From the NCBI GenBank assembly GCA_973895155.1, contig OZ316897.1, positions 21,365,455 through 21,429,454 on the forward strand: a DNA stretch of 64,000 bases, in the 5' to 3' direction. Within the stretch, counting starts at the first letter, position 1. Every line of letters starts with the position of its first letter. Origin of the DNA: Marsupella aquatica. Taxonomy: Eukaryota > Plantae > Marchantiophyta. Positions 4,440-28,276 of this stretch are shown in pieces. The translations under genes and the position numbers were made by a program. The notes under the pieces were generated by a model. That model was not told the origin of the DNA, ran no database searches, and saw only the letters and a program-made list of their open reading frames with translations.

Positions 4440-4443
4440 TTTT

Positions 4444-4705: not shown

Positions 4706-4706
4706 T

Positions 4707-6267
4707 TGCCTGGTTGCTGCATCGGCAAGTCTTCCTTCCTGGGCCTAAACACCTGCTCGATCGTAGGACTAACAGGTGGTTGAGGCTTCTCAGCCAACGG
4801 CCTCGGCGTTGGAGCTTCCTCGGGTGCCCTTACCTGCAGGGGAAGTACCGGGGCAAAAGTCTGACCTCTGGCATACCGGCACAACAGCGGCATGTGATAG
4901 CCAAGCCGCGACACGCTCCCCATGCCGATTACCTGCTGCTCCTCCTTTAAGATCTTCTTCAATTGGTTGAGGAGGTACCCGTTGTAGTCCCGGCTTGGGT
5001 CTGGCCTTTCTGCCAGATAGACCTGTGCCTTGCCGATCTCTGCCCTCGGTAAGTTACAATGCATGGTCACCCGCAAGAAGTCGATCATCTCTCCTATGTG
5101 CGGGTTGGTGCAGGTGTTCCGGAAGAAGCCATTCTTTGTTGATGGCCCGGAGAACGACCGGAACTCCTTGTCAGGCAAGGTCTTCCTGGTATCAACTTTG
5201 GTCTTATTGCCCATCGGCAAGCCAAACACTTCGGCAATCACCTTGGGAGTAAGATAGAAATCCTTCCCATATATCCTCGTGCAATTGGTCTCGGGTTCCC
5301 ATGACCCCACGAATTCTAATAGGTCTGACTCCGGTACCTCCGGCTTCAGCCATGGTAATCTTACAAAGGCCTCCAAGCCGGATCCGGCCATGAAGCCTTG
5401 GTACTTCTTGGTCTGCATGGCCGTAAAGCATGCATCCTCCTCCCGTGCAAAATGTAGTTGCACCTCCACCGGTAGGGTTGCCGCCCAGCCCTTCCAGGTG
5501 TCATCCCTGGTTGGAATGGCCTTGATGGGATCGACCTCCTCCTCTTTGGCTTCTCCCTGCCTCCTGCTCTGCTGCTCGGTTGGCTTCTTTGGTGCCGCCG
5601 ACCTCGTTCTTTTTGCCGGGGTGGCTTCATCGTTGACGGCTCCCTTCCTCTTCATCTCTGCTGCCGTGGAGGTTTCTCCTAGCACTGTTGCCTGGGTCCA
5701 CCTTTCCGTGCTACCCTTTAATTCCCAGTGTATGTCGTTGCAGTTCTTGATGGCCTCTCGGATGCCGACGACGCTGTCTTTGCAAAACAGAAGATCGTCG
5801 AGTTGATTGGAAGTAGGCGTCCACAGGAACTCGTCCTTGATGAGTTCGCCTCCTAAGAAAGCCGTCTTGTGCAGCTCCCACAATCGAGCGAGCTCCTGCC
5901 ATTCTCGAGCTGCCCTTTCTGACTCCTCGTCCTCGTAAGTCTTGATGTACTCAGTTGCCCGTTCGAACAGGCATCCCCAGAAATGTGCCGCTTGATTGAC
6001 GTTGCTCATACCCTCCTTAGGTCGATCGTCGGTATCTACTCTCTCCCCGAGTGCTTGCCTAAGCAGCTGACAGTAGTTGGCCTCCCGTAGTCGTCTGCCT
6101 AGTTCGTGCTCGCAAATGAGCCACCATCTCCTGCAAGCGCTCCTTACCCCTCTCCTCTGCCGGTCCTTCTTCCCGTTGATCCTTCCTAGCCGCCGACGCT
6201 TAACGCGCCCTAACCCTAATCGGGTTTTCACCCTCAGCCTTACCTCCGGCCTCTGCCCGGGTTCCAT
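4707..6267 (-). pseudogene. Uninterrupted N-terminal ~520 codons of the LTR-encoded protein, cut at the junction
   Basis: ORF 4573..6306 reads through the region that is frameshifted in copies A and C. Segment FVRLPWLKP..LLEFVGSW..RIYGKDFYLTPKVIAEVFGLP resembles the 'putative plant transposon protein' domain of retroelement extra ORFs (recognised by eye only). Confidence 0.75.
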
Positions 6268-6382
6268 GGTTGCCCCTAATTGTTTATATTTTCCTTGTTT
6301 TGTCACTATACTAAGGTGTTCCTAGGGTGCCTTCCTGCTTTACCCACTTAACCGGCCGAGTGATTCCTGTCTAGGCATCACA
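4707..6382 (-). mobile_element. 3' LTR copy B, truncated after 1,676 bp; keeps the 235-bp segment missing in copies A and C
   Basis: Begins TGTGATG at 6382 immediately after the PPT. Matches 31-1473 plus the extra segment 5005-5239. Confidence 0.92.
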
Positions 6383-6396
6383 TAGCTCCCCACTTA
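6383..6396 (-). promoter_or_regulatory. Polypurine tract
   Basis: TAAGTGGGGAGCTA directly precedes the TG of the 3' LTR. Confidence 0.8.
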
Positions 6397-9300: not shown

Positions 9301-9543
9301 CTGGGATCTCGGCTGGACTAGCCGAGTCGGTCCCTTCCTTGGTGTCCATAGATTGTCCCCTTACCGGTCTATTCGGTTTTGAATTAGTGGTCGGCTCCCC
9401 TTCCTGCCTTGGCTCTAGATCGTGTCTGTCCATCTCATCCACCTCTTGCTCTTGAGAGTTAGGCCGCTGTGCTCTCTCGGCTTCTAATAGGGCCTCAATT
9501 TGTTCTGCCCTCGTAATCGGCTTGTATGCCGATCTCTTGGTAT

Positions 9544-12536
9544 TTAATTCCTTGCCGATGATCGATGGCGTTGTGGACCCCGTCGGCTCTGCCACAACGC
9601 CTGTAGAAAATCCACTGTCCCTGCTACTGCTCCCCACTTAGCCGTTTCATCCAATTGGTCTACATCCTTTACTTCCTCCGGAATTGCAGCTAAAAAGGTG
9701 GATTCTATTGTAAAGCAGTCCTCGACCTCTTCGTCTTCTTCTTCCAAGTCACCTTCCATTGGTTCTTGCCATAATCCGCTGGGGGGTACCTCTGGTCCAA
9801 AGACACCTTCTTCGGTTAGGTTAGTGAGGCATTCTAACCAACGTACTTCATCAGCTGACTCCAGTCCACTATCGTACCCATCTACTTCCCTTATGCTTTT
9901 CCTACGGTCATCCTTAGTGTCCCAGGATACCGTGATAGAGGGGGTCCCGAAAGTGAACTGCTTTTTACCCCAATCTTCTATTACCTCGGCTAGGTACAGC
10001 CATGGCCTACCAATCAATAGCCGGAAGGACGTAGGATTTACCGGCTTCATTACTACATAGTTAATGCTAAAGAAGATACCTCCTATCTCTGTCTTGATGC
10101 CGGTTAACACTCCCGTCGGAATGACCTGATATCCATTGGCCATGTTCAACACTCTTCCAGTCATCTCCGGTGTTAGACCCCACCCTTTTGCTGTTGAATC
10201 AATCATAATACATACCCCTGATCCTCCATCGATGGGTACCCGTAGTAATAATTCTCCTTGAATCATTAATGGTAATGCTGGGGCTCCTTGATCTTCTTCT
10301 ATCATTAGTACGTCGGATCTGGTTGCTACCTTGGGTAATCTTGGCTTGCCGAGAATAGCCTTCCTTAATTGCTTCCGGAAGTACGGGCTATTTTTCAATA
10401 GTTGACCTACTGTTGCCGAGACTCTAGATTCTAGTACATCTTTAGCCAGGTCATAGGGAACAATCGGCTTCTCTTCTGGTGGTGTTTCCGTCTTGGATTC
10501 GGCCAGTTTTGCTACGCTAGTCTCCACAGCTGTTGGGTCTTCCGAAGCAAACAATGCTTTTGCTCGTTTTACATCCTTGGCAATGGCTTCGGTATTCTCC
10601 AGGGTTTCTAATTCTCTTAGTTGTTCCTTAACACTAGCCGTAACAGAGGGGTAGAACAACTTAGGATGATCTCGATTGAAGTCGCTATCTTGTGAAGGAT
10701 TGGTTTCACTGGTGGGCTCATGGCTTACCTGTATTGCCGGAGCCCTCCCTTCTCCTTCTGTTGATGTTGACGAAGAGTCGATCCTTTCCTCCGTAACCTT
10801 CCCTTTATTTTTGGCCAGCCCATCCCACCTTTCCTTCCTTCTGGTAGATCGAGTAGAGACCCGGTAGCAATCATGATCTAAATCCTCCTTTGAGAAGGTT
10901 GATAGGGCTTCGGCCTCATCATCAGATGGTACGAACTCTGCCTCGGCATCCTCTTGCCATCCTAGTTCGATGTGGTTGATTTGAACTCCTCCGGGGGTAG
11001 TACCTGGCGGTAAGATCTTGATCGGCAAAAGCTTATGATTTGCGGCCAGGCCTGCCAACCAAGTAGGACATTGCCCTAGCATATGACCTTCCTGTCGGCA
11101 TCCCATACATAGCTGAGCTGGTTGTCCATCACCCTGTTTGCGTGCATTCGGGCATTCTCTAGCAAAATGGCCAGGTTGACCACAATTATAGCATGCCGCA
11201 AATCTTTGCACATTCGGCCTAGGAGGTACTGACGGGTTCTGAATAATCCGAGGATACATCTCTCCTGGATTGTTCCTTAACCCTGACCACAGAGATGCAG
11301 GTCTGTTGGATAGGTCTCGTGCTCCAGTCTCACTGATGCCGAAAACACTATCAGCGGCATCTCCCAAAAAGTACTCTACTTCTCCCTGACATGGTCTGAT
11401 CTCGGCCACATGCCGAACATGATTAGTATTAAGCTTAGGACACGCATCTTTATGGTGTCCGGTTTTATAACATAAGGCACACCATACAGAGCTATCCTCC
11501 TGTACTACCTTCTTCTTTGGTTTTACCTCTGCAATGATAGCCTTAAGTTGCTCGGTAAGGGCTACGATGTTATCTGGTGGCTTAGCCTCCATCTTGACTT
11601 TCGTCTTCCCTCTCCTTCTGCCCTTCCTTTTCCTAGTTTTTTCTTCTTCAGAACTAGAAGATGACTCACTCTTGCTACTCCCACTATCCGAGCTTGACTT
11701 ATCACTTCTAGACTTCTGGAATGTTTCTTCTTCTTATCTTTTTTCTTATGGGGTGATCCCTCCTCTGATGAGGAACTCTCAGACTTAAGCTGTTTCTTCC
11801 GGCTTGTGATATCTGCATTAATGTATAATTGAATATCCTTAATTGCTTCGGCTAAAGTCTCCGGGTTCTCCTTCCTAATTGCAAAGCTCATCTTCTGTGG
11901 CAAAGCATTCACCAACCATTGAAGTTGCATACCTTCAGATGCATTGGTCTTTGTACGTCTTACCAGTTTCTGAAAGCGTTGCAAGAACTTCCTGAAGGAT
12001 TTGTTCTCCTTGAACCGAAGTTGTCCCAACTTCAGCACTGCTAGTTCTGAAGTTCCAATGGGTCGAAACTCCTTAACAAAGAGTGTTTTGAAGATATCCC
12101 AGATGGCTTGATCTTCCACATCTAATGCTCTGTACCAAGGCCTAGCCTCACCCTTGAACAGGCCGGGAAGAATCTGCATCTTGATGGCCGATTCTCCATT
12201 TGCTGCAGCGGTTCCCTCGAAATCATCCAACCATTTGTCCGGATCCTCATCTCCTCTCCCATGAAATGCCTTGTAATGTATGCGCGACCGCTGGCTCAAT
12301 CTGGTCCCTGGCCTCTCGTCTGGCCGTGCCTCTGGTTCCCCCATGTCGGTTGGAGACTCACTTCTCCTTACCGACTCTTCTTCTGGTATGTCTTCTTCGA
12401 CGCCACTTCCAGTTTCGGAGCTACCAGCTCTTTCTGCCCCTCTCAGTCGCTGTGTATCATGCCACCCGGCGAGCTGCTGCAGTCGAGCTCTCTCCCGTTG
12501 AATCACTCTTTCTTCCCTCGGCGTAAGGTCAGTCAT
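9544..12536 (-). pseudogene. gag (capsid, three CCHC knuckles) plus aspartic protease, with a 1-bp frameshift near 11720
   Basis: ORF 11562..12536 (FHGRGDEDPDKWLDDF, capsid-like) and ORF 9544..11592 (CALCYKTGHHKDAC, CYNCGQPGHFAREC, CMGCRQEGHMLGQC; protease IDGGSG). Confidence 0.9.
9554..9613 (-). promoter_or_regulatory. Candidate -1 programmed ribosomal frameshift signal between gag-protease and RT
   Basis: In-frame G GAT TTT (9613-9607), 5-nt spacer, perfect 10-bp stem GGCGTTGTGG/CCACAACGCC, and loop GCCGA able to pair with downstream TCGGC. The RT ORF is exactly in the -1 frame. Confidence 0.75.
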
Positions 12537-12583
12537 TACCTACGCTTCCGTTCTAACTTCATATCTCACGGCTTAAGAAATGC

Positions 12584-12601
12584 CCCCTCCATCTAGCGCC
12601 A
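12584..12601 (-). promoter_or_regulatory. Primer binding site (tRNA-Asn-like)
   Basis: Same sequence as 4444-4461, placed between the 5' LTR and gag. Confidence 0.75.
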
Positions 12602-12605
12602 AAAA

Positions 12606-15600
12606 TGTGGTGCGTCCCATGGCTCCCTAAACCCAAGAAACCCCCCAGCTCAAGCCGATTCCCGCAGGTTTCGTGCTTGGCGAGGCCGTTTCCGCGGCTT
12701 AGCGGCATGGGACGCTGCTAACCTTCTACTACTACTATTAACATTTTACACACATATACTGGACAGATCCTTCATCGGGTCATGAGATACGTAGCCGGCC
12801 TAATATAGGCCTTCCCCTGTCTTCCCCTGTCTTCCCCTCCGTCTTGTTAGGTATGTTTGGATTCCGCCGCCGGAATGATCCCCAATAGGCTTGGTTAAGC
12901 CGCTAAGACCTCTCTCAGCTCGACACATCCAACTCTCACTCCCCTGCTTACTTTCCTTCCTTCTGTTGATGTGGGCACTCTTCACACAAGTTAATGCGAC
13001 ACACAAATAGCAAAATGACTCATTCTGACTGAGTCATACCATGCACTTGCCATACAAACAGTACATCTCATACACAAGTTCTGCGAACTAAGCCGTGAGG
13101 CCAACTCTATTCAGCTCTTAGGCATGAGGAAACATGAATATACACAAGGGTCACTGTATGACTAACCGAGAGCTTCTCGTACTACTTGATCCCAGCCCGG
13201 CTGGTGCAAACTAAAAACTTGCTAAAGAAGAGGCCCTGAGCTCCCCGCTGCCCAGGTACTTATCCTGGTAGTGGATCCGCCATTCTTTGCATCGTAAGCC
13301 TAATCTACCTGACAGTAATCTACTTGCCCGAATCTACCTATGTACAGCAAGGCAGGAGCACAAGTGTTGCTCCTACCAGTGGGACCGCAATCCCACTAAG
13401 CTAAGTGTCAGGGCCGCTCCTGGTTCTGATCCTAATCCTAAACGTGGAGATCCGCGCCCGCCCTGCCCACTCACGCCTCCTCCCTCCACGTCCGCCCTCC
13501 CTAAAAGGAACGGCGCCCTTGCACCGTCACGACACCGGTGGTGGATCCTCAATGGACGCCCCCAACACTTCCTCCTCAGCCACTGCCGTTGGCCCGCCTA
13601 CTGACAGATTACCTGCCCTTGACCGAGTCAACTCTCCATCGGCCTGACTGGGTCCACCTTCGGCTTCAGCCTCGACACCGGCCTCGGCAATACCCACGGC
13701 TTCGGCCTCAGCCACTCCCATGGCTTCGGCTTCAGCCACTCCCTCGGCTTCGGCCTCCCCTTCCCCTAGGGTAGTTGGATCCTTAGCCGTGACCCTGTCT
13801 GGGGTCGGTGCTAGGTCTACCTCCTTGATCACCACGGCCTGTGAAGTCGTATTACTCCTTGACCCTGAAGGTTTCCGCTTCTTCTTCGTTGGTGGCTCGG
13901 CAGCTGGTCCCTTCCCCTTCCCACTTACTTCCGGCACTGGTGCAGGTGGCGCGGCTTGTCCTTCGGCAATTACCACCCCTGGTAACTGGTTTGTCCCAAC
14001 GGGAGATGGACCTGCTGCAGCTAAGCATTTAAATACTGCGGCTTGTTTCTTCAGCCGCTCTGTTTGGTTGTCGGCCCGCCGCTGTAGGTTCTCCATCTTC
14101 CTCGTGATTTCCTCCAACTCCTCTTGGGTTTCATCCAGGTCCTTACGTGCCCCCTCCAGCTCGTTTTTGGCCTCCTCCTGCTCCCTGTGGGCTTCCTCCA
14201 ATTCCTTCTTCAAGGTAGCCCTCTCCTCCCGGGTTGCTCTTAGCTCCTTGTCGAGCTCTGCAATGATGACAGACTCCATCTGGTTCATCTTGGCGTAAGT
14301 CTGTTCGAGCATCTCGTCCTTCTCCCTTAGGTCGGCCTTGAAGCTGGCCGTCAGGGACGCAAGCTCCTGCTGCAGCGCCATAATCCCTTGATAGGATTTC
14401 CCTAACTCGACCTCCTTCTGCTCAAGGGCTCCGCGGATTTTCTCGAGCTCCCCTTTCAACGCCCATTCCTTTCTTTGGGTCTCCGCCATGGCCCGACTGT
14501 TGGCTGTTATGTGGGCCTCCTCTGTATTCTTCAGCTCTTGCTTCCACTTCTCCCTCTCTTTGATCGTGTCGGCCAACTCTTCCTGCGTCTGAGTCAGTTT
14601 ATCCTTGATATTCTGATTATCAGCCTGCGCGGTGTCCAACTGCCCCTGCATGATGTTCAGCTCATGTCGTTTAATCCGTAGTTCATCTTGGGCTTTCTTG
14701 GCCGCCCTTAGATTTTCAATCTCGGCTTCCATCCTCCTAAGCCGCCGAATGACCTCGTCCTTCTTGCTTCTCTCTAAAGCCACCGCTTCTTCTAATTGGT
14801 ACTTCTCCAACTGCTCCCTATGGAAAAAGGGTCCTACCTCCAACTCCTCTCCAAAGATGCCGAGCGCAAGTTCCCCACACATCTCACCATACTCCATGGC
14901 TCTATTCTTAGCGTAGGTGGAGTAAGTAGAAGTGATCGGCATCGCCCATCGTGGCCTCTGCTCCCAAGCCGTCCTGCGGATCTCTTCAATCGTGGCTAGA
15001 GGTTTGCTTCCTTTTTCGGCTAGCCGCCTGATGTCCTCCGGCCAATCTCCTCCTGGTAAATCCTTTTCCTTAGCCAGGGCGGCCTCTTCCTCCTGCTTGA
15101 TTCGCTCCTAAAATTCCTGCACCGTCTGTTTTATGCCGTCGAAGCTCGGGGGAGCAACATCTGGTGGGGGAGACTCAAGGCTACTCTGCTGGTTGGGGTC
15201 CCCTCGCACTACCCTTGGAAGTGTGGGGACAAACCGGCCACAGGTCCTTACTCCTGGAACGTGATGGTCCGACCCATAGCCGGAATTATCATGGCTGCAG
15301 TCCTCCACTGCCTCCTCTACCTCTTGGACGTCCGGCTTCTCCCTCTCCTCTTCGTCGGTAGGAGCTTCAGGCAATTCTGCCTCAGATTCGGAGCTTGAGG
15401 TTCCCACGTACATTCGAACACCTGGCTTGGATTCCGGCCTGATTCTCTCCTTGTCTCCAGCAAAGGGGTTTTCTCTTGTGAGCCGGTGTAGGCCTACCTC
15501 TGTAGTAGTGTCCTGCATTGTTGCCATTGCCGTTGTTGTTGTTGTTGCCGATGCCGATTTCTTTTCTTTCTCCAGTAGTTTCAGCAGACTCTGCATGCCT

Positions 15601-17038
15601 GGTTGCTGCATCGGCAAGTCTTCCTTCCTGGGCCTAAACACCTGCTCGATCGTAGGACTAACAGGTGGTTGAGGCTTCTCAGCCAACGGCCTTGGCGTTG
15701 GAGCTTCCTCGGGTGCCCTTACCTGCAGGGGAAGTACCGGGGCAAAAGTCTGTCCTCTGGCATACCGGCACAACAGCGGCATGTGATAGCCAAGCCGCGA
15801 CACGCTCCCCATGCCGATTACCTGCTGCTCCTCCTTTAAGATCTTCTTCAATTGGTTGAGGAGGTACCCGTTGTAGTCCCGGCTTGGGTCTGGTTACCTT
15901 GGGAGTAAGATAGAAATCCTTCCCATATATCCTCGTGCAATTGGTCTCGGGTTCCCATGACCCCACGAATTCTAATAGGTCTGACTCCGGTACCTCCGGC
16001 TTCAGCCATGGTAATCTTACAAAGGCCTCCAAGCCGGATCCAGCCATGAAGCCTTGGTACTTCTTGGTTTGCATGGCCGTAAAGCATGCATCCTCCTCCC
16101 GTGCAAAATGTAGTTGCACCTCCACCGGTAGGGTTGCCGCCCAGCCCTTCCAGGTGTCATCCCTGGTTGGAATGGCCTTGATGGGATCGACCTCCTCCTC
16201 TTCGGCTTCTCCCTGCCTCCTGCTCTGCTGCTCGGTTGGCTTCTTTGGTGCCGCCGACCTCGTTCTTTTTGCCGGGGTGGCTTCATCGTTGACGGCTCCC
16301 TTCCTCTTCATCTCTGCTGCCGTGGAGGTTTCTCCTAGCACCGTTGCCTGGGTCCACCTTTCCGTGCTACCCTTTAATTCCCAGTGTATGTCGTTGCAGT
16401 TCTTGATGGCCTCTCGGATGCCGACGACGCTGTCTTTGCAAAACAGAAGATCATCGAGTTGATTGGAAGTAGGCGTCCACAGGAACTCGTCCTTGATGAG
16501 TTTGCCTCCTAAGAAAGCCGTCTTCTGCAGCTCCCACAATCGAGCGAGCTCCTGCCGTTCTCGAGCTGCCCTTTCTGACTCCTCGTCCTCGTAAGTCTTG
16601 ATGTACTCAGTTGCCCGTTCGAACAGGCATCCCCAGAAATGTGCCGCTTGATTGACGTTGCTCATACCCTCCTTAGGTCGATCGTCGGTATCTACTCTCT
16701 CCCCGAGTGCTTGCCTAAGGAGCTAACAGTAGTTGGCCTCCCGTAGTCATCTGCCTAGTTCGTGCTCGCAAATGAGCCACCATCTCCTGCAAGCGCTCCT
16801 TACCCCTCTCCTCTGCCGGTCCTTCTTCCCGTTGATCCTTCCTAGCCGCCGACGCTTAACGCGCCCTAACCCTAATCGGGTTTTCACCCTCAGCCTTACC
16901 TCCGGCCTCTGCCCGGGTTCCATGGTTGCCCCTAATTGTTTATATTTTCCTTGTTTTGTCACTATACTAAGGTGTTCCTAGGGTGCCTTCCTGCTTTACC
17001 CACTTAACCGGCCGAGTGATTCCTGTCTAGGCATCACA
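12606..17038 (-). mobile_element. 5' LTR copy C (4,433 bp)
   Basis: TG...CA termini, followed by the PBS. Shares the 233-bp net deletion with copy A and has one extra 24-bp unit near 13700-13750. Confidence 0.92.
13527..16923 (-). pseudogene. LTR-encoded long ORF, copy C (stops at 16747 and 15108, plus the deletion frameshift)
   Basis: ORF fragments 16747..16962, 15679..16665, 15108..15851 and 13527..14942 are colinear with copy A. Confidence 0.8.
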
Positions 17039-18096
17039 TTCTCAGGTTGTCTGCCTCTGTTGTATGTGCAGTGTTATGTGATCCAGCCTGGCTAGAAGAA
17101 GCCATGATTGCAGCACTACCTAATCAAAAACACAGTTGCACATCTACCTTCTGTGATATCTTGCAGAGCATATGAATTTGTTTTAGACAACTCCAAAACT
17201 CTTCCATACCATCCTCTAGACTGTCATGTGAAGCAAATGTGTGCACAAGTGAAGAATAGACATACAATTGAGGTACAGTACTCCAACTGAGGTAAAGGCA
17301 GCTCCCACTTTACCCTTCATTGCCAATAGAATAGTACATGCATGCCAACAACAGGTAAACATATGACATATTAGCAATTTGATCAGAAATTATTTACTTG
17401 GGTACGTCACCTAATCTCATTTCATATTAATTGTAAGTGGCAATGGTTATTTGAAGGAGACTTGAATTGTACAAAGCAAAATGTCATAAGTTTACAAGAC
17501 AAAATAAAGGCCTACCTGAACCAGATTTACGCCAAGGGTGTTCACAGTAGTCAGCAATCTCAGACCCTTCAAAACAATGAGTACAATAACAAACATTAAT
17601 CATAATGTCCAACAATCCCCAGCCTCCTTCATATATTCTTTGACTTTTGAATTCATTTGTTGAAATGATCCTCTTCAAACAGGCAGAATGATCACAATGT
17701 TTCATCATCGCCACACAAAACTAGGATACATATGGACAAGGGCCTGAAAGGGTGTCATGTAATATACATAATTTAACATATAGTGTTTTTGTGCAGTAGT
17801 AAGAATGAAATACACACTCAATGTTCAAAATTATAAAAAATAATAAAGTTCAGAGACCCAGGTTGAACTCCTTCTTAAGGCTGTGGGTTTACAAAGGCAG
17901 TACTACAAAACTGGAGACATTAAGTGAAGTTTGCCTTCTTATGGCCAGATCCCTCAAAGAGACAACACAATTTTATAGACCTTGGGTGGATTTTAGGTCT
18001 TGCCTCAGATGTCAGTGTGATGTTTTTTAGTTTTTTGTTATGTAACTCCATTAAGGCTCTTCATATGTTTGCCACACTCTAACAGTCATCATACAA

Positions 18097-18543
18097 TCAG
18101 AATTGATACTGGTCTTTCTCCACTAAGTGCTGCTCTACTCTTGGGCAAACAGTCTCAACTCCTGGTCCCAAGACCGGCTCATCATGGTGAAACATTATAC
18201 AGGCACACCTCCTCTGCACTCTACTGTGTCCATCCCGCCTATATATATCCCCTGGGCGCACTTGACATTTTGGGCAAAGATCCTCACAACTGTGGATACA
18301 GGCAGAGTAGCATATCTGCTCTGGTTGTACCACTCCATTTTTGACTGCCACAATACAAAAACCTATGGGCAAGGGTGGAGCATCTAGAGTAATGGGCCGA
18401 CTGTGCGTGTCTCTCTATACAGGCAAAAACTCCCATTTCACAGCAGAGCTGCCAGGGACCAACCTCATTCCACTCAGCTTCAGGCGTAGCCTCTCAGCTC
18501 TGCCTTCAAGGTCAGCTTCCAAGCTGCTGAGTGTTCTTGGCAT
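18097..18543 (-). pseudogene. Degraded Cys-containing reading frame of unknown product
   Basis: MPRTLSSLEADLEGRAERL... continues through one TAG into ORF 18097..18372 (CIHSCEDLCPKC) and is preceded by an acceptor-like TCACAG. No family recognised. Confidence 0.3.
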
Positions 18544-18874
18544 TACTGTGACAAATACAAAAAGCCAAAATTTTATCCGGGAACCCATGCAAACACTTTA
18601 ACATTCAACCAAATGTTTCATACAATCAGATAGTTTAGTCCATTTGAGTTTAGTCCATAAGACAATTTACCCCATTTCATACAATCTCACAGTTTAGTCC
18701 ATTCAATCCAACTTGACACTTCACTCCATTTTCATCAAACCAAAAGGTCTGGTGTTCCACTGTAGTCCTTTAGTCCATTTTAAAACCTGTATACTTCCAT
18801 AAGTCCTTAGCCCCTTTTATGTTTAGTATACTTTGTACTATGTAGTGTTTCCTACACAATTGAAGGCTTATGGT

Positions 18875-19573
18875 CTATTTGAAATCATGAGGTGGCACAT
18901 CAGAACCCTCTGGAATGACATGGCGATTGCAGTACACCATACGCCATGGACCCATATCCCACATTTCTCTACCCTTCACCCCTCTTTTCAGGTGTTTGTC
19001 TGCCTCTGGTCCCTCATCCTTGCACCATGCACGAGGGCACCTACGGCACTGGATAAATTCCCAGATGCCATCCCAATACTCCTTGCAAACATCACAATAA
19101 TGCCTTGGGCATATCAGAGCAGCGGGATGTGCAATTGGGTTCTTTGGGTACCCTATCAGAGGCAACTCCCTCGCCTTCAGTATAGTCCGTAGACAACCCA
19201 CATGATAAAAGGAATAGCAGTCATCCTGTGCACACTGGACCACAAGGGGCTCATCTGTAGTGGGATTCAAAATTTGGCCAAGCAGCCCACAAGCAAAGCA
19301 ACGACCTCGGTTCTACTGACATAGGTCACAGAGCCACTCCTTGGCCCAATCATGCCCTCTAGAAATGGCAATGCGTGTGCACGCAGGCCCATGGCCATCA
19401 GGTTCCTCAGGATTCTGCCCATCAACTAAGTAATGGAAATGACGACTGCAAGGCCCATCGCAGAACAACACAGTACCTCCCTCATCACATTCAAAACAAC
19501 AAGGGGGATCCATGCGAAGGTGCTCTTTATGGGCAAACTTTGGATCCAGCCAGGCAGCAGCAGCCCGTGCCAT
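18875..19573 (-). pseudogene. EDM2/NSD-type tandem PHD-finger module with an internal stop at 19313-19315
   Basis: Two in-frame ORFs read CFECDEGGTVLFCDGPCSRHFH..WLCDLCQ*NRGRCFACG..VQCAQDDCYSFYHVGC..ICPRHYCDVC..QCRRCPRAW..RMVYCNRH. Cys/His spacing matches the composite PHD region of plant EDM2 as I recall it. Confidence 0.8.
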
Positions 19574-21609
19574 GCCCGATGTGATGTGTGGATCTGCACA
19601 ATTACCTAAGTGAATATTACAAGAAGTTTATGGAGAGGGGCAAGACACAAACAAGAAGAGCGTGTGTGTAGTGTACTTACCGTGAGAGAGCAAAAAGTCC
19701 AAATCAACAGATGTCCTGCCCACCTAAGTTTCACGGAGTACAATAACTTGGCAATGCTTCTTGCGTGCTCTGCACAAAGAGCAAAAAGTTAAACATGGTT
19801 CTTTGAGATAAAATCCAGGGATGGATTTACTCTCTGAAAATTTGTTGACTCACACTGGCTATCTATTTAATTTGTGTTCTATCAAAGTTGTTGAAAATAA
19901 ACAAAGTAGCAGCAATTGAGTTGACAGGCTCAATAGATTGAGAAAATTACAAACATTGGAGTGGAATGGAAGGAAAGCAAAGTGGCTGCAGTCAGGCAGA
20001 CTAAAAACAAATCTATAGAGAAATACTTTGTCCATGTACAAGCATTATTTGTAGATCCACTTTGAACTCTGTACTAAAGAAAAATCCTCATGCCTTTGAC
20101 CTCTCCATACATAGGCTCTGTACCCGAGACTCTGTAAAAACTACTTGGTCCTTGGTGTTCAAACCTAGCATTACATGCTGCTCTACAAATTGGTACTGTC
20201 TTGAGGAGCTCGATGAAACAATAATGCACAGCACTGTACTCAGAGCAGAGACAAGAACCAAACTATGTAACTATTTGATATTCCATGGAGACACAAAGGA
20301 TGCACAGTGCATAGGACCACAAAGCAAGCCAGGCCAGGACCAAAATGCAAATTAGCAGGATTTGTGCACTCTACTGATGGGGACACAATGTCCAATGTAG
20401 GTCCAATGTCCGCCCACGTTGATCGTAGCTCTTGTCGTAGCTCCAATCACTCGCAGTCTCACTGAATGTTGGAAGTCGCTTGCAACTCAGTTAATCGAAC
20501 TAGCAGCTTGCTTGTACCTGAGTTGCTCTGTCCTTCACTCAAACTGAAACTTGCAGGTCCAATGTCTGCCTTGGTAGAATGTAGCACAGCTCTACCTTAG
20601 TTGCAGCTCTGTCGTTCACTGGAAACTGAAAAAAACCTTCCCGTCCTTGCCAGTGTGGAGTGCAGCTCCCACCTTCATACAATCTCACGTCGCACAATAA
20701 TAAACAGTCAAAGCTTACGGAAGAGCAAACGCCGGGTTATATAAGCAAAGTCCGTAAAACTTTAGAGAATGTCTCAAACATTCAACTTGAATGAATTCAT
20801 TTGTGTGGCCGATAGTAGCATTCATTCACTATTGCAACCACTTGCCTTGGTTCTAGCTGAGTGTACAGTCATACTCCCCATCGGGTAGAGCTATGTACAT
20901 ATTCAAAGAGGACAACAAATAAGGGCAATGTAGATCCATACTCTTACCTGATAACCCAAGCTTCAAGGAGCTCAGAGCGGTTTAAATGGCAGCAGGTAAA
21001 GGCGTTTCAGTTGCAGCTTGGCCCTTCACTGAAACTGAAAGAAAGGGATCCCGTCCTCGCCAATGTGGAGCGCAGTTCTCACCTTGCAGCCCATAACACA
21101 ACACACAATGAAAGACAGTCGCAGTCCCTGAGCCTGCTATACAAGGAACTCTCCTGCTGTACAAGCGAGGCACCACAAAATGGACAGAGCTTTGAAGCAA
21201 AACAGAGAGAGAACTCAGAGCAATAACAGTCGATGCCAAAAAGAAAAACGAGGTAGCCAAGGCACAAGTAATATGCCAACTACCACAGCAATGAAATGAA
21301 GCGGCCCCCACCTCGTATCACGTCCAGTGCTCCTCAATTGTTTGCGACTGCTGCTCAGGACCTAATCTTCGTCTGTAGCTCCAACTCCAACACAACCACA
21401 CCTCAAACGGAGCTTCAATGCACCCACTTCATAACCCAATGTTTGATCCTCTACTCAGAAATGGGCTCAAAAATTGTCACCATGACTCGAGCTCATGAAC
21501 TGAATGGTGGCAGTAAGTAAGGGCACCTATGAGGAGTTCCAAGTCCGTAAGGGAACTCACAATGTGATCAAAAATTAGGAGCAGCGGACCTCAGCTCCTT
21601 CACCCTAAA

Positions 21610-21845
21610 ACGCAGCACCGACCTCACAGCGACCTCACAGCAACGATCTCACAGTAGCGACCTTGCAGCAGCGACCTCACAGTAGTGCCCTTGCACCTCA
21701 ACTCACTGCTCAGCACCAAGGTTGCGCGCAGCAGCAACCTCGCACTTCAACTCACCGCTCAGCACCGATCTTGCAGCAGCGACCTCGCACCTCAACTCGC
21801 AGCAGTGACCTCGCACCTCCACTCGCTGCTCAACTTCACGAGAAT
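21610..21845. repeat. Degenerate short tandem repeat (GCAGCAGCGACCTCGCACCTCAACTC-like)
   Basis: Repeated GACCTC(G/A)CA and CAACTC units. Confidence 0.7.
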
Positions 21846-22549
21846 ACCTTAACTCCCAACGTGAACTTGTGACTTGTGTGACCGGTGTGACTGAACGGGC
21901 AACCCTAAACCCAGGTCTGAATTTCTTATGGGAAATGGGATCCAATGTGGCCGGGCATTGTTTCGTGGGATCCAAGGAAGATAGGGCCGGGGCATGACAA
22001 GATGACACATGGTCAGCAAATAAGGCTTTGGGACGGCAACGGGAATTTTACTGGGATGTTGAGGGTAGTAATGGAGTCAATCTCCAGGTTCCATAATACC
22101 CCTCTAACATTGTTATCCCCTCGCCAATCAATTTTAGGAGATGGAGGAAGTTTGGGGCCAAATGCTTTTTTGATGACACAAATACTTGTCACAAGTATGT
22201 ATTACCATCTACAATAACCAGAGACTCAAAAACTTAATTTACTGGTGGCCTTTGAAACCCATTGATGTGGAAACCTAGGTGCCAAAATTCCCAAATAGTA
22301 TATAACACAAAATAAATTACAAACATATGCGCGCATAGGTTTAGGATGTACATCCTCATTGACCCACCAAATGACGTCACAATTACCTAAGTGAGGAAGT
22401 CATTTGGTGGACATTCTCATAAAATTAGTCACTCACATATTAAATGACTAATCTCATAGTCCTCACTCCTAGGATTGACAACATAAATGACTTGTTTTCA
22501 TGTCATTGCCCAAAACCTAAACTTACGGCACTCCATAATTGCCAAATGC

Positions 22550-25210
22550 AATACATTCTTTGTGGGAAGCATCCTTAATGGTGGGTTCCTATTACCAATA
22601 TGGCCAATCAGCGTCCAAGCCCCCAAAGAGTCATATTGTCCATGGCATGCGTGACTGCCGCATTGACATCAACAATGACTCATTTTCATGTCAAATGCAT
22701 AAATGACGTATTATAGGACTCCACAAATGACCAAAAAGTGCACTCACTTTGAAAATGACTCGGAATCCCTTGGGAATGACCAAATGGGAGTGATATGGAC
22801 CACTTTAGGTAAATGACTACTGAGTCGTACAACGTGGGAGTGTTTTGCCCAAAGAATCTCATAGTCCTTCCTTGGTGCAAAAGTTGGCTACAAAAAACCT
22901 TTAGGAGACAAAGTGGCATAACTAGTGGTCGAGGGTTGAAGAATATCCTATCCCGCACCATGTGGAGTGGGTAGCATCCCTAATGGCCGGCTACAATCAC
23001 AAATATTGTCAATCAGCCCCCAAAGGCCCAAACAAGTCATATTACCCATGGCATGCATGACTGTAACATTGACATCATGAATGACTGAGTTTTGTGTCAT
23101 TTGCACGAATGACGTCTCTCGGCACTCCCAAAATGACAAAAATCCTTAGTCATGCGCACAAATGACTCTAAATCCTTTCCAAATGACCAAGCAATAGTGG
23201 TTTGCACCCCTTTGGGCAAATGACTCCAAAGTCATACAACTTGGGAGTGTTTTGTCCAAAGTTGGGTGATGCTCTTCCAAGGTGCAAAATGTGTGTTTTA
23301 AAAAGCTTTGTGGAGGCCAAGTGGTATAACTAGTGGCCCAGGGTTGTCGAGTACCCTATACCACACCATGTGGAGTGGGTAGCATCCCTAATGGTGGGCT
23401 ACAATCGTGGATATGGCCAATCGACCCCCGGAGGCCCCAAAGAGTCATATTGTCCATGGCATGCATGACTGCAACATTGACATCATGAATGACTGAGTTT
23501 TGTGTCATTTACATGAATGACGTCTCCCAACACTCCCTAAATGACACAAACCCTTAGTCACGTGCACAAATGACTCAAGATCCCTTGCAAATGACCAAAT
23601 TAGAATGATTTGCACCCCTTTGGGCAAATGACTCCAAAGTCATACAACTTGGGAGTGTTTTGCCCAAAGTTGGGTGATGCCCTTCCATGATGTAAAATGT
23701 GTGCTTAAAAAAGTGTTGTGGAGGCCAAGTGGCATAACTAGTGGCTCAGGGTGTACAAGTACCCCATTCCGCACCATGTGGAGTGGGTAGCATCCCTAAT
23801 GGCCAGCTGCGATCACAGATATTGCGAATAAGCCCCCAAAGGCCCCAAGGAGTCATATTGTCCATGGCATGCTTGACTGCCGCCTTGACATCATCAATGA
23901 CTCATATTTGTGTCATTTACTTAAATGACACCCCTCGGCACTCCACAAATGACAAAAACCTTTAGTCAGACGCACAAATGACTCAAGATCCCTTGCAAAT
24001 GACCAAATTAGAATGATTTGCACCCCTTTAGGCAAATGACTCCAAAGTCATACAACTTGGGAGTGTTTTGCCCAAAGTTGGGCCATGCCCTTCCATGATG
24101 CAAAATGTGTGTTTTAAAAAGTGTTGTGGAGGCCAAGTGGCATAACTAGTGGCTCAGGGTGTACAAGTACCCCATCCCGCACCATGTGGAGTGGGTAGCA
24201 TCCCTAATGGCCGGCTACAATCACGTATATTGCGAATAAACCCCCAAAGGCCCCAAGGAGTCATATTGTCCATGGCATGCTTGACTGCCGCCTTGACATC
24301 ATCAATGACTTATTTTTGTGTCATTTGCTTAAATGACACCCCTCGGCACTCCACAAATGACAAAAACCTTTAGTCAAGCGCACAAATGACTCTATATCCC
24401 TTGCAAATGACAAAATGCGAGTGGTTTGCACCCCTTTGGGCGAATGACTCCAAAGTCATACAACTTGGGAGTATTTTGCCCAAAGTTGGGCCATGCCCTT
24501 CCAAGGTGAAAAAGTTGGGTCATAAAAACTATTGCGAGGCCAAATTGAGATAACTAGTGGCCCAGAGTTTAGGTGTACCCTACCCCGCACCATGTGGAGT
24601 GGGTAGCATCCCTAATGGTGGGCTACAATCATGGATATGGCCAATCGACCCCCGGAGGCCCCAAAGAGCCATATTGTCCATGGCATGCATGACTGCAATA
24701 GTGACATCATGAATGACCTATTTTTGTGTCATTTGCATGAATGACGTCTCCCAACACTCCCTAAATGACACAAACCCTTAGTCACATGCACAAATGACTC
24801 TAGATCCCTTGCCAATGACTCACAATAGTGGTTTACACCCCTTTGGGCAAATGACTCCAAAGTCATACAACTTGGGAGTGTTTTGCCCAAAGTTGGGTGA
24901 TGCCCTTCCATGATGCAAAATGTGTATTTTAAAAAGTGTTGTGGAGGCCAAATGGTATAACCAGTGGCCTAGGGTTGTCAAGTACCCTATCCTGCACCAT
25001 GTGAAGTGGGTATCATCCTTAATGGCCGGCCCCTATCACCAATGGGGTCAATCAGCCACCAAAGGCTCTTAAGAGTCATATTCTGCATGGCATACATGAC
25101 CACAACATTGACATCCCAAATGACATTTGCATAAATGACATCTAGCGGCACTTGTCAAATGACTAGAAAGTTGAGTGAGAGCAAAAATGATTGGGAATCC
25201 TTTGCAAATA
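22550..25210. repeat. 408-bp tandem array, ~6.5 units, rich in AAATGAC/GTCATT motifs
   Basis: Anchor CACCA-TGTG(G/A)AGTGGGT recurs at 22961, 23369, 23777, 24185, 24593 and 25000, with a degenerate unit near 22561. Confidence 0.95.
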
Positions 25211-25649
25211 ACATGAATAATATATTGAAAAAAATGACATGAGCAAATATAGGCATGTAGTACCTAAATTCTAAACCTTAAACCCTAGACCTATGCTCGA
25301 GAGTGTTATTTGGCAACCTTGCATGCCCCCATATATACTCCAACATGTGAAATGTGAATACATCTTAAGGAATGTAAACACTTCAGGAGTCCTTGACATA
25401 TATAGGAAAGATGTAATAAATGGGTGCAAGTATATATAAATGTACATACTTATTAGAGATTATCAAGCCTTTAAGTTGTACATCAATTTAATGATGTGAC
25501 TCACAACAAAAGAAGGCTTGTTAGGTCTCTAAATGTATTTCAAATCTAATATGTGAGTGCCACTGGTCTTTATATATACTACCATACATTTTGGATGACT
25601 AATCATACCCTAAACCCTAAAATATATACTAAACCATAAACCTCAAAAT

Positions 25650-26052
25650 AGTCATATGTTGTTTATCATGTCATTTATCACTTTTGGTTTAAATGACTAC
25701 TAATATTTTTAAACACTGATATTTGCATATTTGATTTATTAGTCATTAGTCACCGTCGTCTGAAATGACTTCCCATATGTGAAACACTGATATGACAGAG
25801 TTTTTGTTAATTGTGTCATTCACAAAGACTGTCCAAAATGACTACAACTCATGATTGTTGTCATTATAGCAGTCAAAGTCATTTGGCTCATTGGTTTAAA
25901 TGACACTATTGCAAGTATTAGTCATTTTTTGCTCCACGTGATTTTGGACAGTCATTTCAATGTCATTTATGTTATGTCATTTACATATTTTGTCATTTGA
26001 GCACATAAGTCATATGTGTCATAGTCATAAAAGGCCCCATTTTCTACTAGTG
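25650..26052. mobile_element. One end of a CACTA (En/Spm) DNA transposon: TIR and subterminal repeats
   Basis: TTTTCTACTAGTG at 26040-26052 (reverse complement CACTAGTAGAAAA) follows dense ATGAC/GTCAT motifs in both orientations. Sequence switches abruptly to Copia pol at 26053. Other end and transposase not found in the window. Confidence 0.8.
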
Positions 26053-28276
26053 ATGGTCAATAGGCAGACTCATCTAAGCTAAATGATGTTGACATTGCAC
26101 CTGATGAAGATAATATATGGCTTTGATCTTGGAAGAAGAAGAGCCTTCTTCGTATAATGAGGCTTGTGCTTCAGAGCGGAAGCATGAGTAGAATGTAGCA
26201 ATGCAAAGGGAGTTGCAATATTTGAATGACAACAAGACATGGGAGCTGGTGGAGCTTCCAAGAGGTCAGCAAGTGGTGGACAACAAGTGGATTTACAAGT
26301 TGAAGGACAGTCCTTCAAAGGGTGGAGATAAGATCTACAAGGCAAGGCTTGTTACCAAGGGATTCACTCAGGAGAAAGGAGTGGATTACAATGAGGTCTT
26401 TTCACCGATGGCTAAGTATTCCACAATTTAGATCTTGTGTCAGCTTGTTGTGTTTTTTGGTCTGGTGATGGATCAGATGGATGTTGTTCCCGATGTTGTT
26501 ACTACTTTTCTCTATGGCAACTTGGAAGAGATGATCTTCATGAGACAGCCAATAGACTTTATGAAGAAGGGCCAAGAGAACTTAGTTTGCAGATTGCTCA
26601 AATCCTTGTATGGATTGAAGCAATCTCCCAGACAGTGGAACAAGCGGTTTGATGATTTCATGCTTGCTCAAGGTTTTACAATGATGGTGTATGATCCTTG
26701 TGTGTATACGACTCAGTCAAGAATGATGTATTTGGTTTCACATTATGGTTATCTATGTGACATGCTAATTGTGGCTAAAGATCAATCTGAGGTTGACAAA
26801 CTCAAGGCAAAATTGAGTTCTGAATTCAGGATGAAGGATCTTGGTAAGGCCAAGAGAATCTTAGGGATGGAGATTTTTAGGAACTCTGATACTGGACAGT
26901 TGTGCTTGAGTCAAGGCCAGTATGCGAGGAAAGTACTTGCACGATTCAACATGGAAAACTGTAAGCCAATGAGTATTCCTTTAGCTTCACATTTCAAGTT
27001 ATCATTGACTTTCTCTCCTACGGATGCTGTGGAGAAAGGTCTGATGGCTAAGATTCCTTATGAGAAGGCAGTAGGCAGTCTGATGTATTTGATGACTTGT
27101 ACTAGGCCTAACTTGGCCCTAGCGATGGGCAAGGTCAGTAGATTCATGTCAAATCCAGGGAAGGTACATTGGGAAGCTATGAATGGATTCTTAGGTATCT
27201 GAAGGGTACATAGGACTATGGATTATTATTTGATGCCAGATCAGATAGAACGTTAGTTGACTATGTAGATTCTGACTATGGAGGCTGTTTGGACACAAGG
27301 AGGTCTACAACTGGGTATGTATTTACGGTTGGAGGAGGATGTATCAATTGGAAATCTACCTTGCAGAAGTGTATATCTCAGTCTACTACAGAAGCAAAGT
27401 ATGTTGCAGTAGCAAAAGCATCAAAGGAAGCAATTTGGTTGGACAAGTTGATCGCGAAGATGGGTTTAGAGCATGGCAAAATGTCTCTAAACTATGATAG
27501 TCAGAGTGCTCTTCACTTGGCTGCTAACCAGATGATGGATAACAGGGTGAAGCACATTGATATCAGGTACCATTTTATCAGGCAAACAATGTCTGATAAA
27601 ACTTTTGAGCTAGTCAAGATTGATGGAAAGCTCAATCCCATTGATTCCTTTACCAAAGTGATTCCTTTGGAGAGTTTCTCAAGACGCCGTGCTACTTTGC
27701 AGGTTTTGCAGTTGTAGTGCAAGTAGAGTTATTTAGCAATGTGTGACTATTTGTATATGGATTACTTATTCCAGTTTGGCTACGGCTTAGTTCTAGTTAA
27801 CCTTTAGTTAGCCTTTGTGGTTTTTAGGGGGAGACCTGTCTAGGTGATTGTCTAGAACTTCCCGCTGAGGATTCCATATGGTAGCATTTAGTCCAGTCCC
27901 CAAGACAAGAGTCAAGGGGGAGTTTCTTAGATATTGCTCTAGTCTTGTGACTCATGAGCTAACCACAATTAGTCTAACTCGGGTTAGGACTTAGCTAATG
28001 TTAGCGGTAGACAGTGTTGTTGTGAATATAGCCAGGGCTGATGCCAGACCCTGGTGGAACTTAGGCTCAAATGTTGTTACGGAGCTAGTTGAGAGATAGG
28101 GAGAGCTTGTGCTGTGGATGCTTGGTATGGCCATTTGGCCTAGAGTGCAGTAAAACTCTTGTGTGTTCCCGTGGACGTAACCTCATGTGGAGGTGAATCA
28201 CGTATCTCTTTGTGTTCACTCTTGTACGTTGGATGGTTCATGGGCTTGCAGTTGCGAATGTCGTCTATGCTCAACA
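26053..28276 (+). mobile_element. 3' part of a degraded Ty1/copia element (RT, RNase H, PPT, 3' LTR)
   Basis: Motifs NKTWELV, YKARLVTKGFTQ, KSLYGLKQSPRQW, RRSTTGYVF and KHIDIRYHFIR with stops and frameshifts. PPT AAGGGGGAG at 27914-27922. Confidence 0.93.
27925..28276 (+). mobile_element. Copia 3' LTR (~352 bp)
   Basis: Follows the PPT, runs TCTTAG (probably mutated TGTTAG) to CTCAACA, and is homologous to the solo LTR at 43927-44643. Confidence 0.75.

What the first reader, a model, noticed from the sequence alone, without database searches (positions are those of the whole stretch)
18875..19573. Stand-alone EDM2-type histone-reader module apparently carried inside a CACTA transposon
Seen: an intronless ~230-codon tandem PHD module with one probable CAG>TAG stop lies ~6.5 kb inside the CACTA terminus at 26052, beyond its repeat array. 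The third finger lacks the usual H..C ligands (CRRCPRAWCKDE) and no EDM2 C-terminal domain follows. Known: Arabidopsis EDM2 PHD fingers bind H3K9me2-marked chromatin and, with ASI1/IBM2 and AIPP1, promote full-length transcripts across intronic heterochromatin. Some plant TEs encode anti-silencing proteins (VANC in VANDAL). Inference: a captured chromatin reader may help the element express or target itself in silenced chromatin. Membership in the CACTA is unproven because the other TIR is not in the window.
Basis: partly seen in the sequence, partly recalled or inferred. Interest (0 to 1): 0.72.

Follow-up and report, generated by a model that had tools for sequence, protein, structure and literature searches.

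The report
Transposon-borne EDM2-type histone reader gene
A small plant gene made only of three zinc fingers related to the chromatin reader EDM2 occurs in many diverged copies that keep its reading frame, is likely carried by a CACTA DNA transposon, and would help that transposon work in silenced chromatin, although this copy is broken by a stop codon.

Summary
A 232-codon EDM2/NSD-type triple-PHD ORF lies at 19573-18875 (-) with one TAG, 6.5 kb inside a CACTA end and its subterminal array; no other EDM2 part is in the window. It is not a decayed one-off capture. Contigs from four public runs (two studies) show many diverged copies. Nearly all read CAG at the stop. None of 11 listed pieces inside the ORF has an indel (13 of 16 touching non-coding DNA do). 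Divergent ends give 26 synonymous to 18 replacement changes. Intact stand-alone relatives at 56-68% identity exist. The clade is a long branch whose nearest hits are short liverwort EDM2-like paralogues; the donor is only weakly resolved. 23 of 24 zinc ligands are kept, and finger 1 looks like a reader of unmethylated H3K4. CACTA membership is likely (about 70%) but unproven: no second TIR, no transposase, no contig linking gene to TIR, and 1.8 kb of low-copy DNA lies between. Most likely it is a selected accessory gene that reads heterochromatic H3 tails as an adaptor or decoy. Binding, expression and anti-silencing are untested.

The parts
18875..19573 (-). Stand-alone EDM2/NSD-type triple-PHD ORF (232 codons); this copy has a private TAG at 19315-19313
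   Evidence: the start Met aligns with Met-Ala in P0001 and P0002; the codon is CAG in nearly all other copies
19594..19680 (-). Predicted GT-AG intron in the 5' leader
   Evidence: Donor ACG|GTAAGT and acceptor TTGTGCAG; other copies differ or carry indels here (tables 4, 5); no RNA evidence
19681..19769 (-). Predicted upstream exon, probably untranslated
   Evidence: Splice motifs; 1-bp indels in other copies at 19684, 19687 and 19754 (table 4); other copies diverge beyond about 19743 (table 7)
19850..21600 (.). Low-copy internal segment between the gene and the terminal region (subfamily-specific or captured DNA)
   Evidence: Depth 1.0-1.5 times baseline at 20537-20903 in all four runs, up to 17 times in X3 near 21271; no Pfam hit above cut-off in six frames
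21612..21826 (.). GC-rich short tandem repeats; candidate promoter or first-exon region of the minus-strand unit
   Evidence: 14-, 26-, 28- and 49-bp units; CpG o/e 0.76 at 21600-22000 against 0.34 in the PHD ORF; multicopy bin 21638-22004; role inferred
22562..25115 (.). Subterminal tandem array, 408-bp unit x 6.3
   Evidence: AAATGAC/GTCATTT motif 48 times in 22300-26052 (3.8 kb) against 11 times in the other 60 kb
25116..26039 (.). Subterminal region with the same short motif in both orientations (15 copies)
   Evidence: multicopy
26040..26052 (-). CACTA-type terminal inverted repeat, one end only; flank ATG
   Evidence: sits directly against an interrupted Copia pol
18097..18543 (-). Candidate second cargo ORF (148 codons, Cys/His-rich, no known family) with one internal TAG
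   Evidence: the stop codon reads CAT or CAC in other copies (18417 and 18415); no Pfam hit and no homologue; SNV test inconclusive, 1 of 10 single-site changes synonymous
17039..18096 (-). Further multicopy DNA of the same unit, with a weak Cys/His-rich frame at 17759-17484; cut at 17038 by a Gypsy LTR
   Evidence: Depth 7-48 times baseline at 17601-17967; no Pfam hit; LTR end at 17038
26053..27717 (+). Decayed Copia pol (RT/RNase H part) into which the CACTA end is inserted
   Evidence: RVT_2 E 6e-36; junction translation

Best explanation
This is a stand-alone, multicopy EDM2-type triple-PHD gene kept under purifying selection, likely an accessory gene of a CACTA transposon family, whose product is predicted to bind histone H3 tails in silenced chromatin and would act as an adaptor or decoy that gives the element access to it. 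Shown: the ORF, its private stop, many diverged open copies, frame and ligand conservation, and its position inside a CACTA end. Inferred: (a) ancient capture from a short EDM2-like host paralogue, followed by loss of all other domains; (b) carriage by the CACTA family; (c) finger 1 binds H3 with unmethylated K4 and tolerates or prefers K9 methylation, as EDM2 does; (d) with no effector domain it must work in trans through partners (the transposase or neighbouring small ORFs) or by occupying the mark, favouring expression or transposition in heterochromatin. The window copy is a dead one, cut by a Gypsy insertion.
For: Multicopy: 201, 119, 568 and 153 contigs were laid on 18050-19850 in X1-X4, many at 80-95% identity. 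Summed depth over the gene is 16, 15, 119 and 45 times the low-copy baseline; the terminal bin 25675-26041 is 16, 30, 105 and 61 times, while the flanking Copia is 471-3718 times and the Gypsy LTR 1140-2741 times. Selection: the stop is private; 0 of 11 listed pieces inside the ORF have gaps (141 substitutions in 1590 bases) against 13 of 16 pieces touching non-coding DNA (Fisher p 3e-6 on the 11 and 14 pieces with substitutions); a by-eye count on 7 divergent loose ends gives 26 synonymous and 18 replacement changes against 21% synonymous sites, pN/pS about 0.19; intact stand-alone relatives P0001 (68%), P0004, P0005 and P0002 (56%) exist. Reader features: 23 of 24 host ligand positions are kept, as is the Asp before finger 1 (D in 83 of 104 host rows); a profile of the family hits NSD2/NSD3 (E 9e-20 to 2e-15) and, for finger 1, AIRE, TRIM33 and TRIM24; the model of P0001 has pLDDT 74 and its best VIA match is the NSD2 PHDv-C5HCH tandem, Z 6.0, rmsd 2.4 over 76 residues. 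TE-like CpG depletion: o/e 0.34 in the ORF against 0.60-0.87 in three host-gene regions. EDM2 binds H3K9me2 (PMC9910501, passages). TnpA-like regulators appear restricted to flowering plants (10.64898/2026.08.24.746577 section 6), which leaves room for other accessory genes elsewhere.
Against: No second TIR, no TSD and no TnpD/TnpA were found: no Pfam hit in 17039-18100 or 19600-22560, and the rest of the element is outside the window. No listed contig links gene and TIR, and 19850-21600 is low-copy, so most other copies do not share this copy's layout. The tool states that contig depth is no copy number, and the between-run ranking of depth is shared by the Copia, so only the similar level counts. 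Pieces and loose ends are not independent and are only the listed subsets (32 of 1051 pieces, 24 of 111 loose ends, 12 of 33 indels). The 10 listed SNVs in the ORF (4 synonymous, 5 replacement, 1 at the stop) are uninformative alone. The genomic context of P0001-P0005 is unknown. The donor is weakly placed: long branch of 3.7; AU p 0.036, 0.059 and 0.118 for three alternatives; unresolved in the 77-row quick tree. No Foldseek match reached E 0.001, and a VIA Z of 6 is modest. Finger 3 lacks one canonical ligand. No binding or expression data.
Confidence: 0.5

Rival explanations
1. The selected multicopy PHD gene belongs to a different mobile unit (for example a Helitron or MULE, or a cassette nested in the CACTA), and the CACTA end is only a neighbour separated by 1.8 kb of low-copy DNA.
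For: 19850-21600 is near single-copy, and other copies diverge from the window at about 19743; no linking contig is listed; no transposase is in view.
Against: Depth levels of the gene, the 21638-22004 bin and the TIR end are similar in each run and far below the flanking LTR elements. There is no inward-facing second TIR between gene and array that would close a short CACTA. The gene points away from the array, as an internal transcription unit would.
Confidence: 0.17
2. It is CACTA cargo under selection, but it works as a zinc-bound protein-protein scaffold (for the transposase or for host chromatin factors) and no longer reads histone marks.
For: Very long branch from host proteins; altered third finger, an extra Cys before finger 1, and Phe for the usual Cys at position 53; NSD-type tandem PHDs also serve as protein-binding modules (recalled).
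Against: Finger 1, the presumed H3-binding finger, is the best conserved part and keeps the acidic residue and the C-D-E-G-G pattern; its profile matches known readers of unmodified H3K4 (their specificity is recalled).
Confidence: 0.15
3. It is an expanded host gene family of short PHD proteins, and this pseudogene copy has been surrounded by transposon insertions.
For: Purifying selection fits host function; liverworts have several short EDM2-like paralogues; host genes lie about 6 kb away.
Against: Flanking non-coding DNA and unrelated ORFs are co-amplified; depth ratios differ about eightfold between runs that are near-identical on low-copy DNA; CpG depletion is TE-like; no named plant proteome protein above about 37% identity turned up among the checked top hits.
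Confidence: 0.1
4. It is a Pack-CACTA-style passive capture of an EDM2 exon, amplified with the element and decaying neutrally.
For: This copy has a stop; CACTA elements capture host DNA (PMC13317346, passages).
Against: The stop is private; no indels in listed coding pieces; pN/pS about 0.19; intact relatives at 56-68% keep all 23 ligands; it is only 28-33% identical to the four liverwort host modules compared, so it is not a recent capture from those.
Confidence: 0.05

Closest known systems
Arabidopsis EDM2 and the ASI1-AIPP1-EDM2 (AAE) complex
   Same: Same atypical tandem PHD module (PF22908 plus flanking fingers); named EDM2 or EDM2-like proteins of Asparagus, Physcomitrium and Selaginella are among the hits. 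EDM2 binds H3K9me2 (PMC9910501, passages).
   Different: 232 aa, against about 800-1600 aa for most long EDM2 hits; no RFD-like N-terminus, ELP methyltransferase-like domain or Pro-rich tail (domain list from PMC7529245, passages); multicopy; altered third finger.
Short liverwort EDM2-like paralogues (Riccia sorocarpa KAL3685775.1, Marchantia polymorpha Mp1g03210 and Mp4g03050, Calypogeia fissa CAM6087769.1)
   Same: Best-scoring host hits (E 9e-25 to 9e-19); share the DPP motif before finger 1 and AW in finger 3, and end soon after the module; grouped with the clade at 99/98 in the 28-row tree.
   Different: Only 31-36% identical; most keep a long N-terminal part and all keep H-x2-C in finger 3; they are annotated host genes.
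Chromatin readers captured by transposons: chromovirus chromodomains, PHD fingers of retrotransposons, the MBD of arthropod CopiaMBD
   Same: A host-derived epigenome reader kept by a mobile element, proposed to steer insertion or compete with host readers (PMC6673714, passages).
   Different: Those are retrotransposon domains (the MBD is in the same ORF as the integrase). This is a separate gene, of the EDM2 type, likely in a cut-and-paste DNA transposon.
Transposon anti-silencing factors: VANC/KIU of VANDAL and TnpA of En/Spm
   Same: Accessory genes, in part of host origin (VANC resembles MAIN; PMC13547354, passages), that help a DNA transposon against silencing.
   Different: VANC and TnpA recognise DNA motifs of their own element. 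This protein has no detected DNA-binding domain and would recognise a histone state. No anti-silencing activity is shown here.
Pack-CACTA elements
   Same: CACTA ends carrying host-derived coding DNA (PMC13317346, passages).
   Different: The cargo here is old, intact in most copies and under purifying selection.

Membership tests
CACTA (En/Spm) element | Terminus beginning CACTA | tested here: met
   One end at 26040-26052
CACTA (En/Spm) element | Subterminal repeats in both orientations | tested here: met
   408-bp array and AAATGAC/GTCATTT motif, 48 in 3.8 kb against 11 in 60 kb
CACTA (En/Spm) element | Matching second TIR and 3-bp target-site duplication enclosing the PHD gene | not testable with these tools
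   The element is cut by a Gypsy nest at 17038 that fills the window to its left edge; no genome is held
CACTA (En/Spm) element | TnpD transposase or TnpA gene | tested here: inconclusive
   None in 17039-18100 or 19600-22560 by six-frame Pfam scan; the missing half is outside the window
CACTA (En/Spm) element | PHD gene co-mobilised with the CACTA end | tested here: inconclusive
   Similar relative depth of gene and terminus in four runs, but a low-copy gap lies between and no bridging contig is listed
EDM2-type PHD module | Tandem atypical PHD fingers with PHD_NSD core | tested here: met
   PF22908 above cut-off; hhalign to P0006 99.7% over 193 columns; 23 of 24 ligand positions
EDM2 orthologue (full protein) | N-terminal RFD-like and C-terminal ELP methyltransferase-like domains | tested here: not met
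   The ORF stops after the module; tblastn of 12 host proteins finds nothing else in the window; the closest relatives are also 211-247 aa
EDM2 orthologue (full protein) | Binds H3K9me2 and AIPP1/ASI1 | not testable with these tools
   Needs biochemistry
VANC/TnpA-type anti-silencing factor | Sequence-specific DNA binding and hypomethylation of cognate elements | not testable with these tools
   No DNA-binding domain detected by Pfam; no methylome or assay
Neutral Pack-type capture | Fragmentary cargo close to a host donor, evolving without constraint | tested here: not met
   Frame kept, synonymous excess, 28-33% identity to the four host modules compared

The most novel reading that the evidence does not exclude
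A CACTA family of a non-flowering plant, lacking TnpA, has turned the H3K9me2-reading module of the host's own EDM2 family into a free-standing accessory protein, one of a cassette of small zinc-binding genes, and uses it to mask or exploit the silencing mark: a histone-mark-based counter-silencing or targeting system distinct from DNA-motif-based VANC and TnpA.
Probability: 0.3. Interest if true: 0.85.

Novelty: new variant of a known kind. Interest (0 to 1): 0.63.

Why it matters
The plant transposon counter-silencing proteins in the papers read here (VANC, TnpA) recognise DNA motifs and are reported only in flowering plants, and the captured readers cited there (chromodomain, PHD, MBD) are retrotransposon domains. 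A selected, stand-alone EDM2-type reader in a DNA transposon would show that a host factor that handles transposon heterochromatin was itself taken over by a transposon. It would suggest what CACTA elements outside angiosperms use in place of TnpA. It also gives a small protein for testing directly whether reading H3K9 methylation helps a cut-and-paste element express or choose targets. Ten full-text searches listed no paper describing an EDM2-type PHD in a CACTA element. The library lacks most subscription papers and repeat databases, and the supplements of the 962-protein Spm survey were not seen.

Tried and rejected
No genome is held for the window, so copies could not be placed. The search for longer, fused homologues found none among 123 candidates, which is weak evidence. 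Both metagenome scans found nothing: related loci (223 pattern matches, none confirmed) and the 24-nt TIR pattern. No RNA holder was listed; this is not evidence on expression. Single-sequence PDB searches found nothing for the window ORF and only a weak NSD1 hit for P0001 (E 0.002). Foldseek gave no match at E 0.001 or better; its top rows are NSD1/2/3 PHD-C5HCH and Ehd3 tandem PHD. The ESM Atlas gave PHD_NSD clusters of Streptophyta for P0001 (0.93) with a recognition value below the reliable range; the second ORF has no Atlas result. The second ORF has no Pfam hit or homologue, and its frame test was inconclusive. Reading the upstream exon as coding was rejected because it has a stop in the PHD frame and 1-bp indels in other copies. 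The 77-row quick tree left the clade unplaced beside a long branch (77 of 137 modules); the careful tree used 28 chosen rows. A crude motif scan for TnpD found nothing credible (motifs recalled). Rfam found nothing in the window. Four look-ups of earlier findings returned nothing. The 2014 paper on EDM2 PHD peptide binding was not held; I saw only its title in a reference list. No complex prediction was run because no cognate partner was available.

Full report
Observation. The minus strand at 19573-18875 encodes a 232-codon Cys/His-rich protein with one internal TAG at 19315-19313. Pfam gives PHD_NSD (PF22908) above cut-off, E 8e-9, with weaker PHD-1st_NSD and PHDvar_NSD matches on either side. 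A CACTA-type end lies at 26040-26052, the only exact match in the window, with no inward-facing partner at up to 2 mismatches. Inside it are a subterminal region and a 408-bp x 6.3 array, with the AAATGAC/GTCATTT motif 48 times in 3.8 kb against 11 times in the other 60 kb. The end abuts an interrupted Copia pol. On the other side the unit is cut at 17038 by a Gypsy LTR, and that nest fills the window to base 31, so the second TIR and TSD cannot be seen. No genome is held.

Gene structure. The Met at 19573 aligns with Met-Ala in P0001 and P0002. Twenty bases upstream is an acceptor, then a GT-AG intron (19680-19594) and an exon (19769-19681). That exon has a stop in the PHD frame and 1-bp indels in other copies, so I read it as untranslated. 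tblastn of 12 host EDM2-like proteins against the window hits only the PHD module. The gene points away from the array; GC-rich short repeats at 21612-21826 may mark its promoter or first exon (inference).

Is it multicopy? Six public runs hold part of the region. I laid the four best (X1-X4, two studies, all contigs; one may be the source sample). On 18050-19850, 201, 119, 568 and 153 contigs were laid, many at 80-95% identity. Relative to long near-identical contigs in the low-copy stretch, summed depth over the gene is 16, 15, 119 and 45 times. The terminal bin is 16, 30, 105 and 61 times, and 17601-18701 is 7, 8, 61 and 35 times. The bin 20537-20903 is 1.0-1.5 times. The flanking Copia is 471-3718 times and the Gypsy LTR 1140-2741 times. 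The tool warns that this depth is no copy number, X1 was read only to 57%, and the Copia shows the same ranking between runs. I therefore use only two points: the gene is repeated, and its level is close to that of the CACTA end and far from that of the LTR elements. Against a simple picture, 19850-21600 is low-copy, other copies leave the window sequence near 19743, and no listed contig bridges gene and TIR.

Is it under selection? At 19315 the other copies read CAG: 3863 of 3863, 537 of 561, 17221 of 17311 and 1251 of 1251 depth units (8, 7, 17 and 1 contigs). Of the 32 listed pieces (of 1051), the 11 wholly inside the ORF carry 141 substitutions and no gap; 13 of the 16 that touch non-coding DNA have gaps (Fisher p 3e-6 on the 11 and 14 pieces with substitutions). 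None of the 12 listed indels (of 33) is in the ORF. Thirteen of the 24 listed loose ends (of 111) fall in or at the ORF, nine of them distinct. I dropped two (one with an extra in-frame codon, one spanning the stop and flank) and compared seven by eye with the codons printed. This gave 26 synonymous and 18 replacement changes, using paths that minimise replacements, against 21% synonymous sites: pN/pS about 0.19, binomial p 5e-8, or 6e-5 if 30% is assumed. One end reads LCQQNRGRC across the stop with seven silent changes. These pieces are not independent, so the p-values are indicative. The 10 listed SNVs in the ORF (4 synonymous, 5 replacement, 1 at the stop) say little alone. Independent support comes from intact stand-alone relatives: P0001, P0004 and P0005 (68-70%, 98-99% to each other) and P0002 (56-57%). 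Their genomic context is unknown.

Origin. An exhaustive search found 196 proteins at E 0.001 or better. After the stand-alone clade, the best hits are liverwort proteins of Riccia, Marchantia and Calypogeia, 280-770 aa long, that end shortly after the PHD module and share a DPP motif before finger 1. Long EDM2 proteins with a DNMT1-RFD domain follow. In a careful 28-row tree the clade is a 3.7-long branch that falls with the seven short paralogues, split from the other 18 rows at 99/98. AU tests reject grouping with liverwort long EDM2 marginally (p 0.036) and do not reject moss (0.059) or lycophyte (0.118) placements. A 77-row quick tree left it unplaced. Capture from a short EDM2-like paralogue, and a liverwort-like host, are therefore leads and not results.

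Protein features. In a 108-row alignment, 23 of the 24 ligand positions of the three fingers are kept in P0001 and P0002, and by inspection in the window copy. In finger 3, H-x2-C is replaced by a single Cys in all clade members; a His about ten residues later is shared by the clade and could supply the fourth ligand (untested). Finger 1 keeps the Asp found in 83 of 104 host rows and has no Trp two residues before the His ligand, which fits reading of unmethylated rather than trimethylated H3K4 (rule recalled). The family profile hits NSD2 and NSD3 and, for finger 1, AIRE, TRIM33 and TRIM24. The AlphaFold model of P0001 has pLDDT 74, with most ten-residue blocks across the fingers at 81-96 and several loops at 42-63. 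Foldseek has no hit at E 0.001. VIA-align's best match is the NSD2 PHDv-C5HCH tandem, Z 6.0, rmsd 2.4 over 76 residues, which is modest.

Neighbouring cargo. A second minus-strand frame at 18543-18097 (148 codons, Cys/His-rich) also has one TAG, which reads CAT or CAC in other copies. It has no Pfam hit or homologue, and its SNV pattern is inconclusive (1 of 10 synonymous). A weaker frame lies at 17759-17484. No TnpD or TnpA signal was found in 17039-18100 or 19600-22560.

Mechanism. A reader without an effector can only act through partners or by occupying its mark. I judge it most likely (0.5) that it is a CACTA accessory gene whose product binds heterochromatic H3 tails and serves as adaptor or decoy, helping the element express or transpose in silenced chromatin. 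Rivals are a different neighbouring mobile unit (0.17), a non-histone scaffold (0.15), a host gene family (0.10) and neutral capture (0.05). An AAE-like polyadenylation role needs EDM2's partners and probably its other domains, and nothing here supports it specifically.

Literature. I saw passages of PMC7529245 (EDM2 domains and partners), PMC9910501 (EDM2 binds H3K9me2), PMC3632883, 10.1101/2022.09.21.507229, PMC13317346 (gene capture, VANC/KIU, Pack-CACTA; no occurrence of PHD), PMC13547354 (Arabidopsis TE products; no occurrence of PHD or EDM2) and PMC6673714 (CopiaMBD; says retrotransposon chromodomains and PHDs are widespread). For 10.64898/2026.08.24.746577 I saw passages and section 6 (TnpA-like proteins appear restricted to flowering plants; no occurrence of PHD). 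Ten searches listed no report of an EDM2-type PHD in a CACTA element. Supplements and repeat databases were not seen and may hold such an element.

Verdict. It is a new variant of a known kind (transposon-captured chromatin readers), with CACTA membership at about 0.7 and function untested. Interest 0.63.

Noticed in passing
window 31-17038: Gypsy element with unusually long (about 4.7 kb) terminal repeats that carry long ORFs with no clear Pfam family (432-780 aa, one coiled-coil rich); copies at 31-4705 and 12340-17038 are inverted and 98-100% complementary, suggesting an inversion, head-to-head nest or assembly artefact.
   Followed up: partly
window 18097-18543 (-): Second Cys/His-rich ORF with no known family whose single stop is absent from other copies; possible further cargo gene.
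   Followed up: partly
window 19597-19613 and 22378-22394: An identical 17-bp direct repeat at the PHD gene's splice acceptor and just before the subterminal array (E 0.007); it could mark a boundary of the internal segment or be chance.
   Followed up: no
window 20599-20709 and 21009-21120: A 76%-identical internal duplication in the low-copy segment, next to splice-like motifs.
   Followed up: no
window 33299-37387 (+): Intron-rich host gene ending in a CAHGRP motif, probably the mismatch-repair gene MLH3 (motif recalled; single frames gave no Pfam hit).
   Followed up: no
window 39980-40991 (-): Two-exon cupin (germin-like) gene.
   Followed up: no
window 54193-59051: Near-complete Copia element with 226-bp LTRs at 98% identity, inside a locally duplicated region next to a Kelch-repeat gene at 59619-60878.
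   Followed up: no
window 61533-63216: Complex array of 59-, 71-, 97- and 156-bp repeats, possibly another transposon's subterminal region.
   Followed up: no
proteins P0042, P0015/P0159-P0161, P0132, P0150: Other short, unnamed EDM2-type PHD proteins; P0042 shares the FCDGPC and RGRCF patterns of this clade, and P0015 forms a cluster of four Logan variants, so more stand-alone families may exist.
   Followed up: partly
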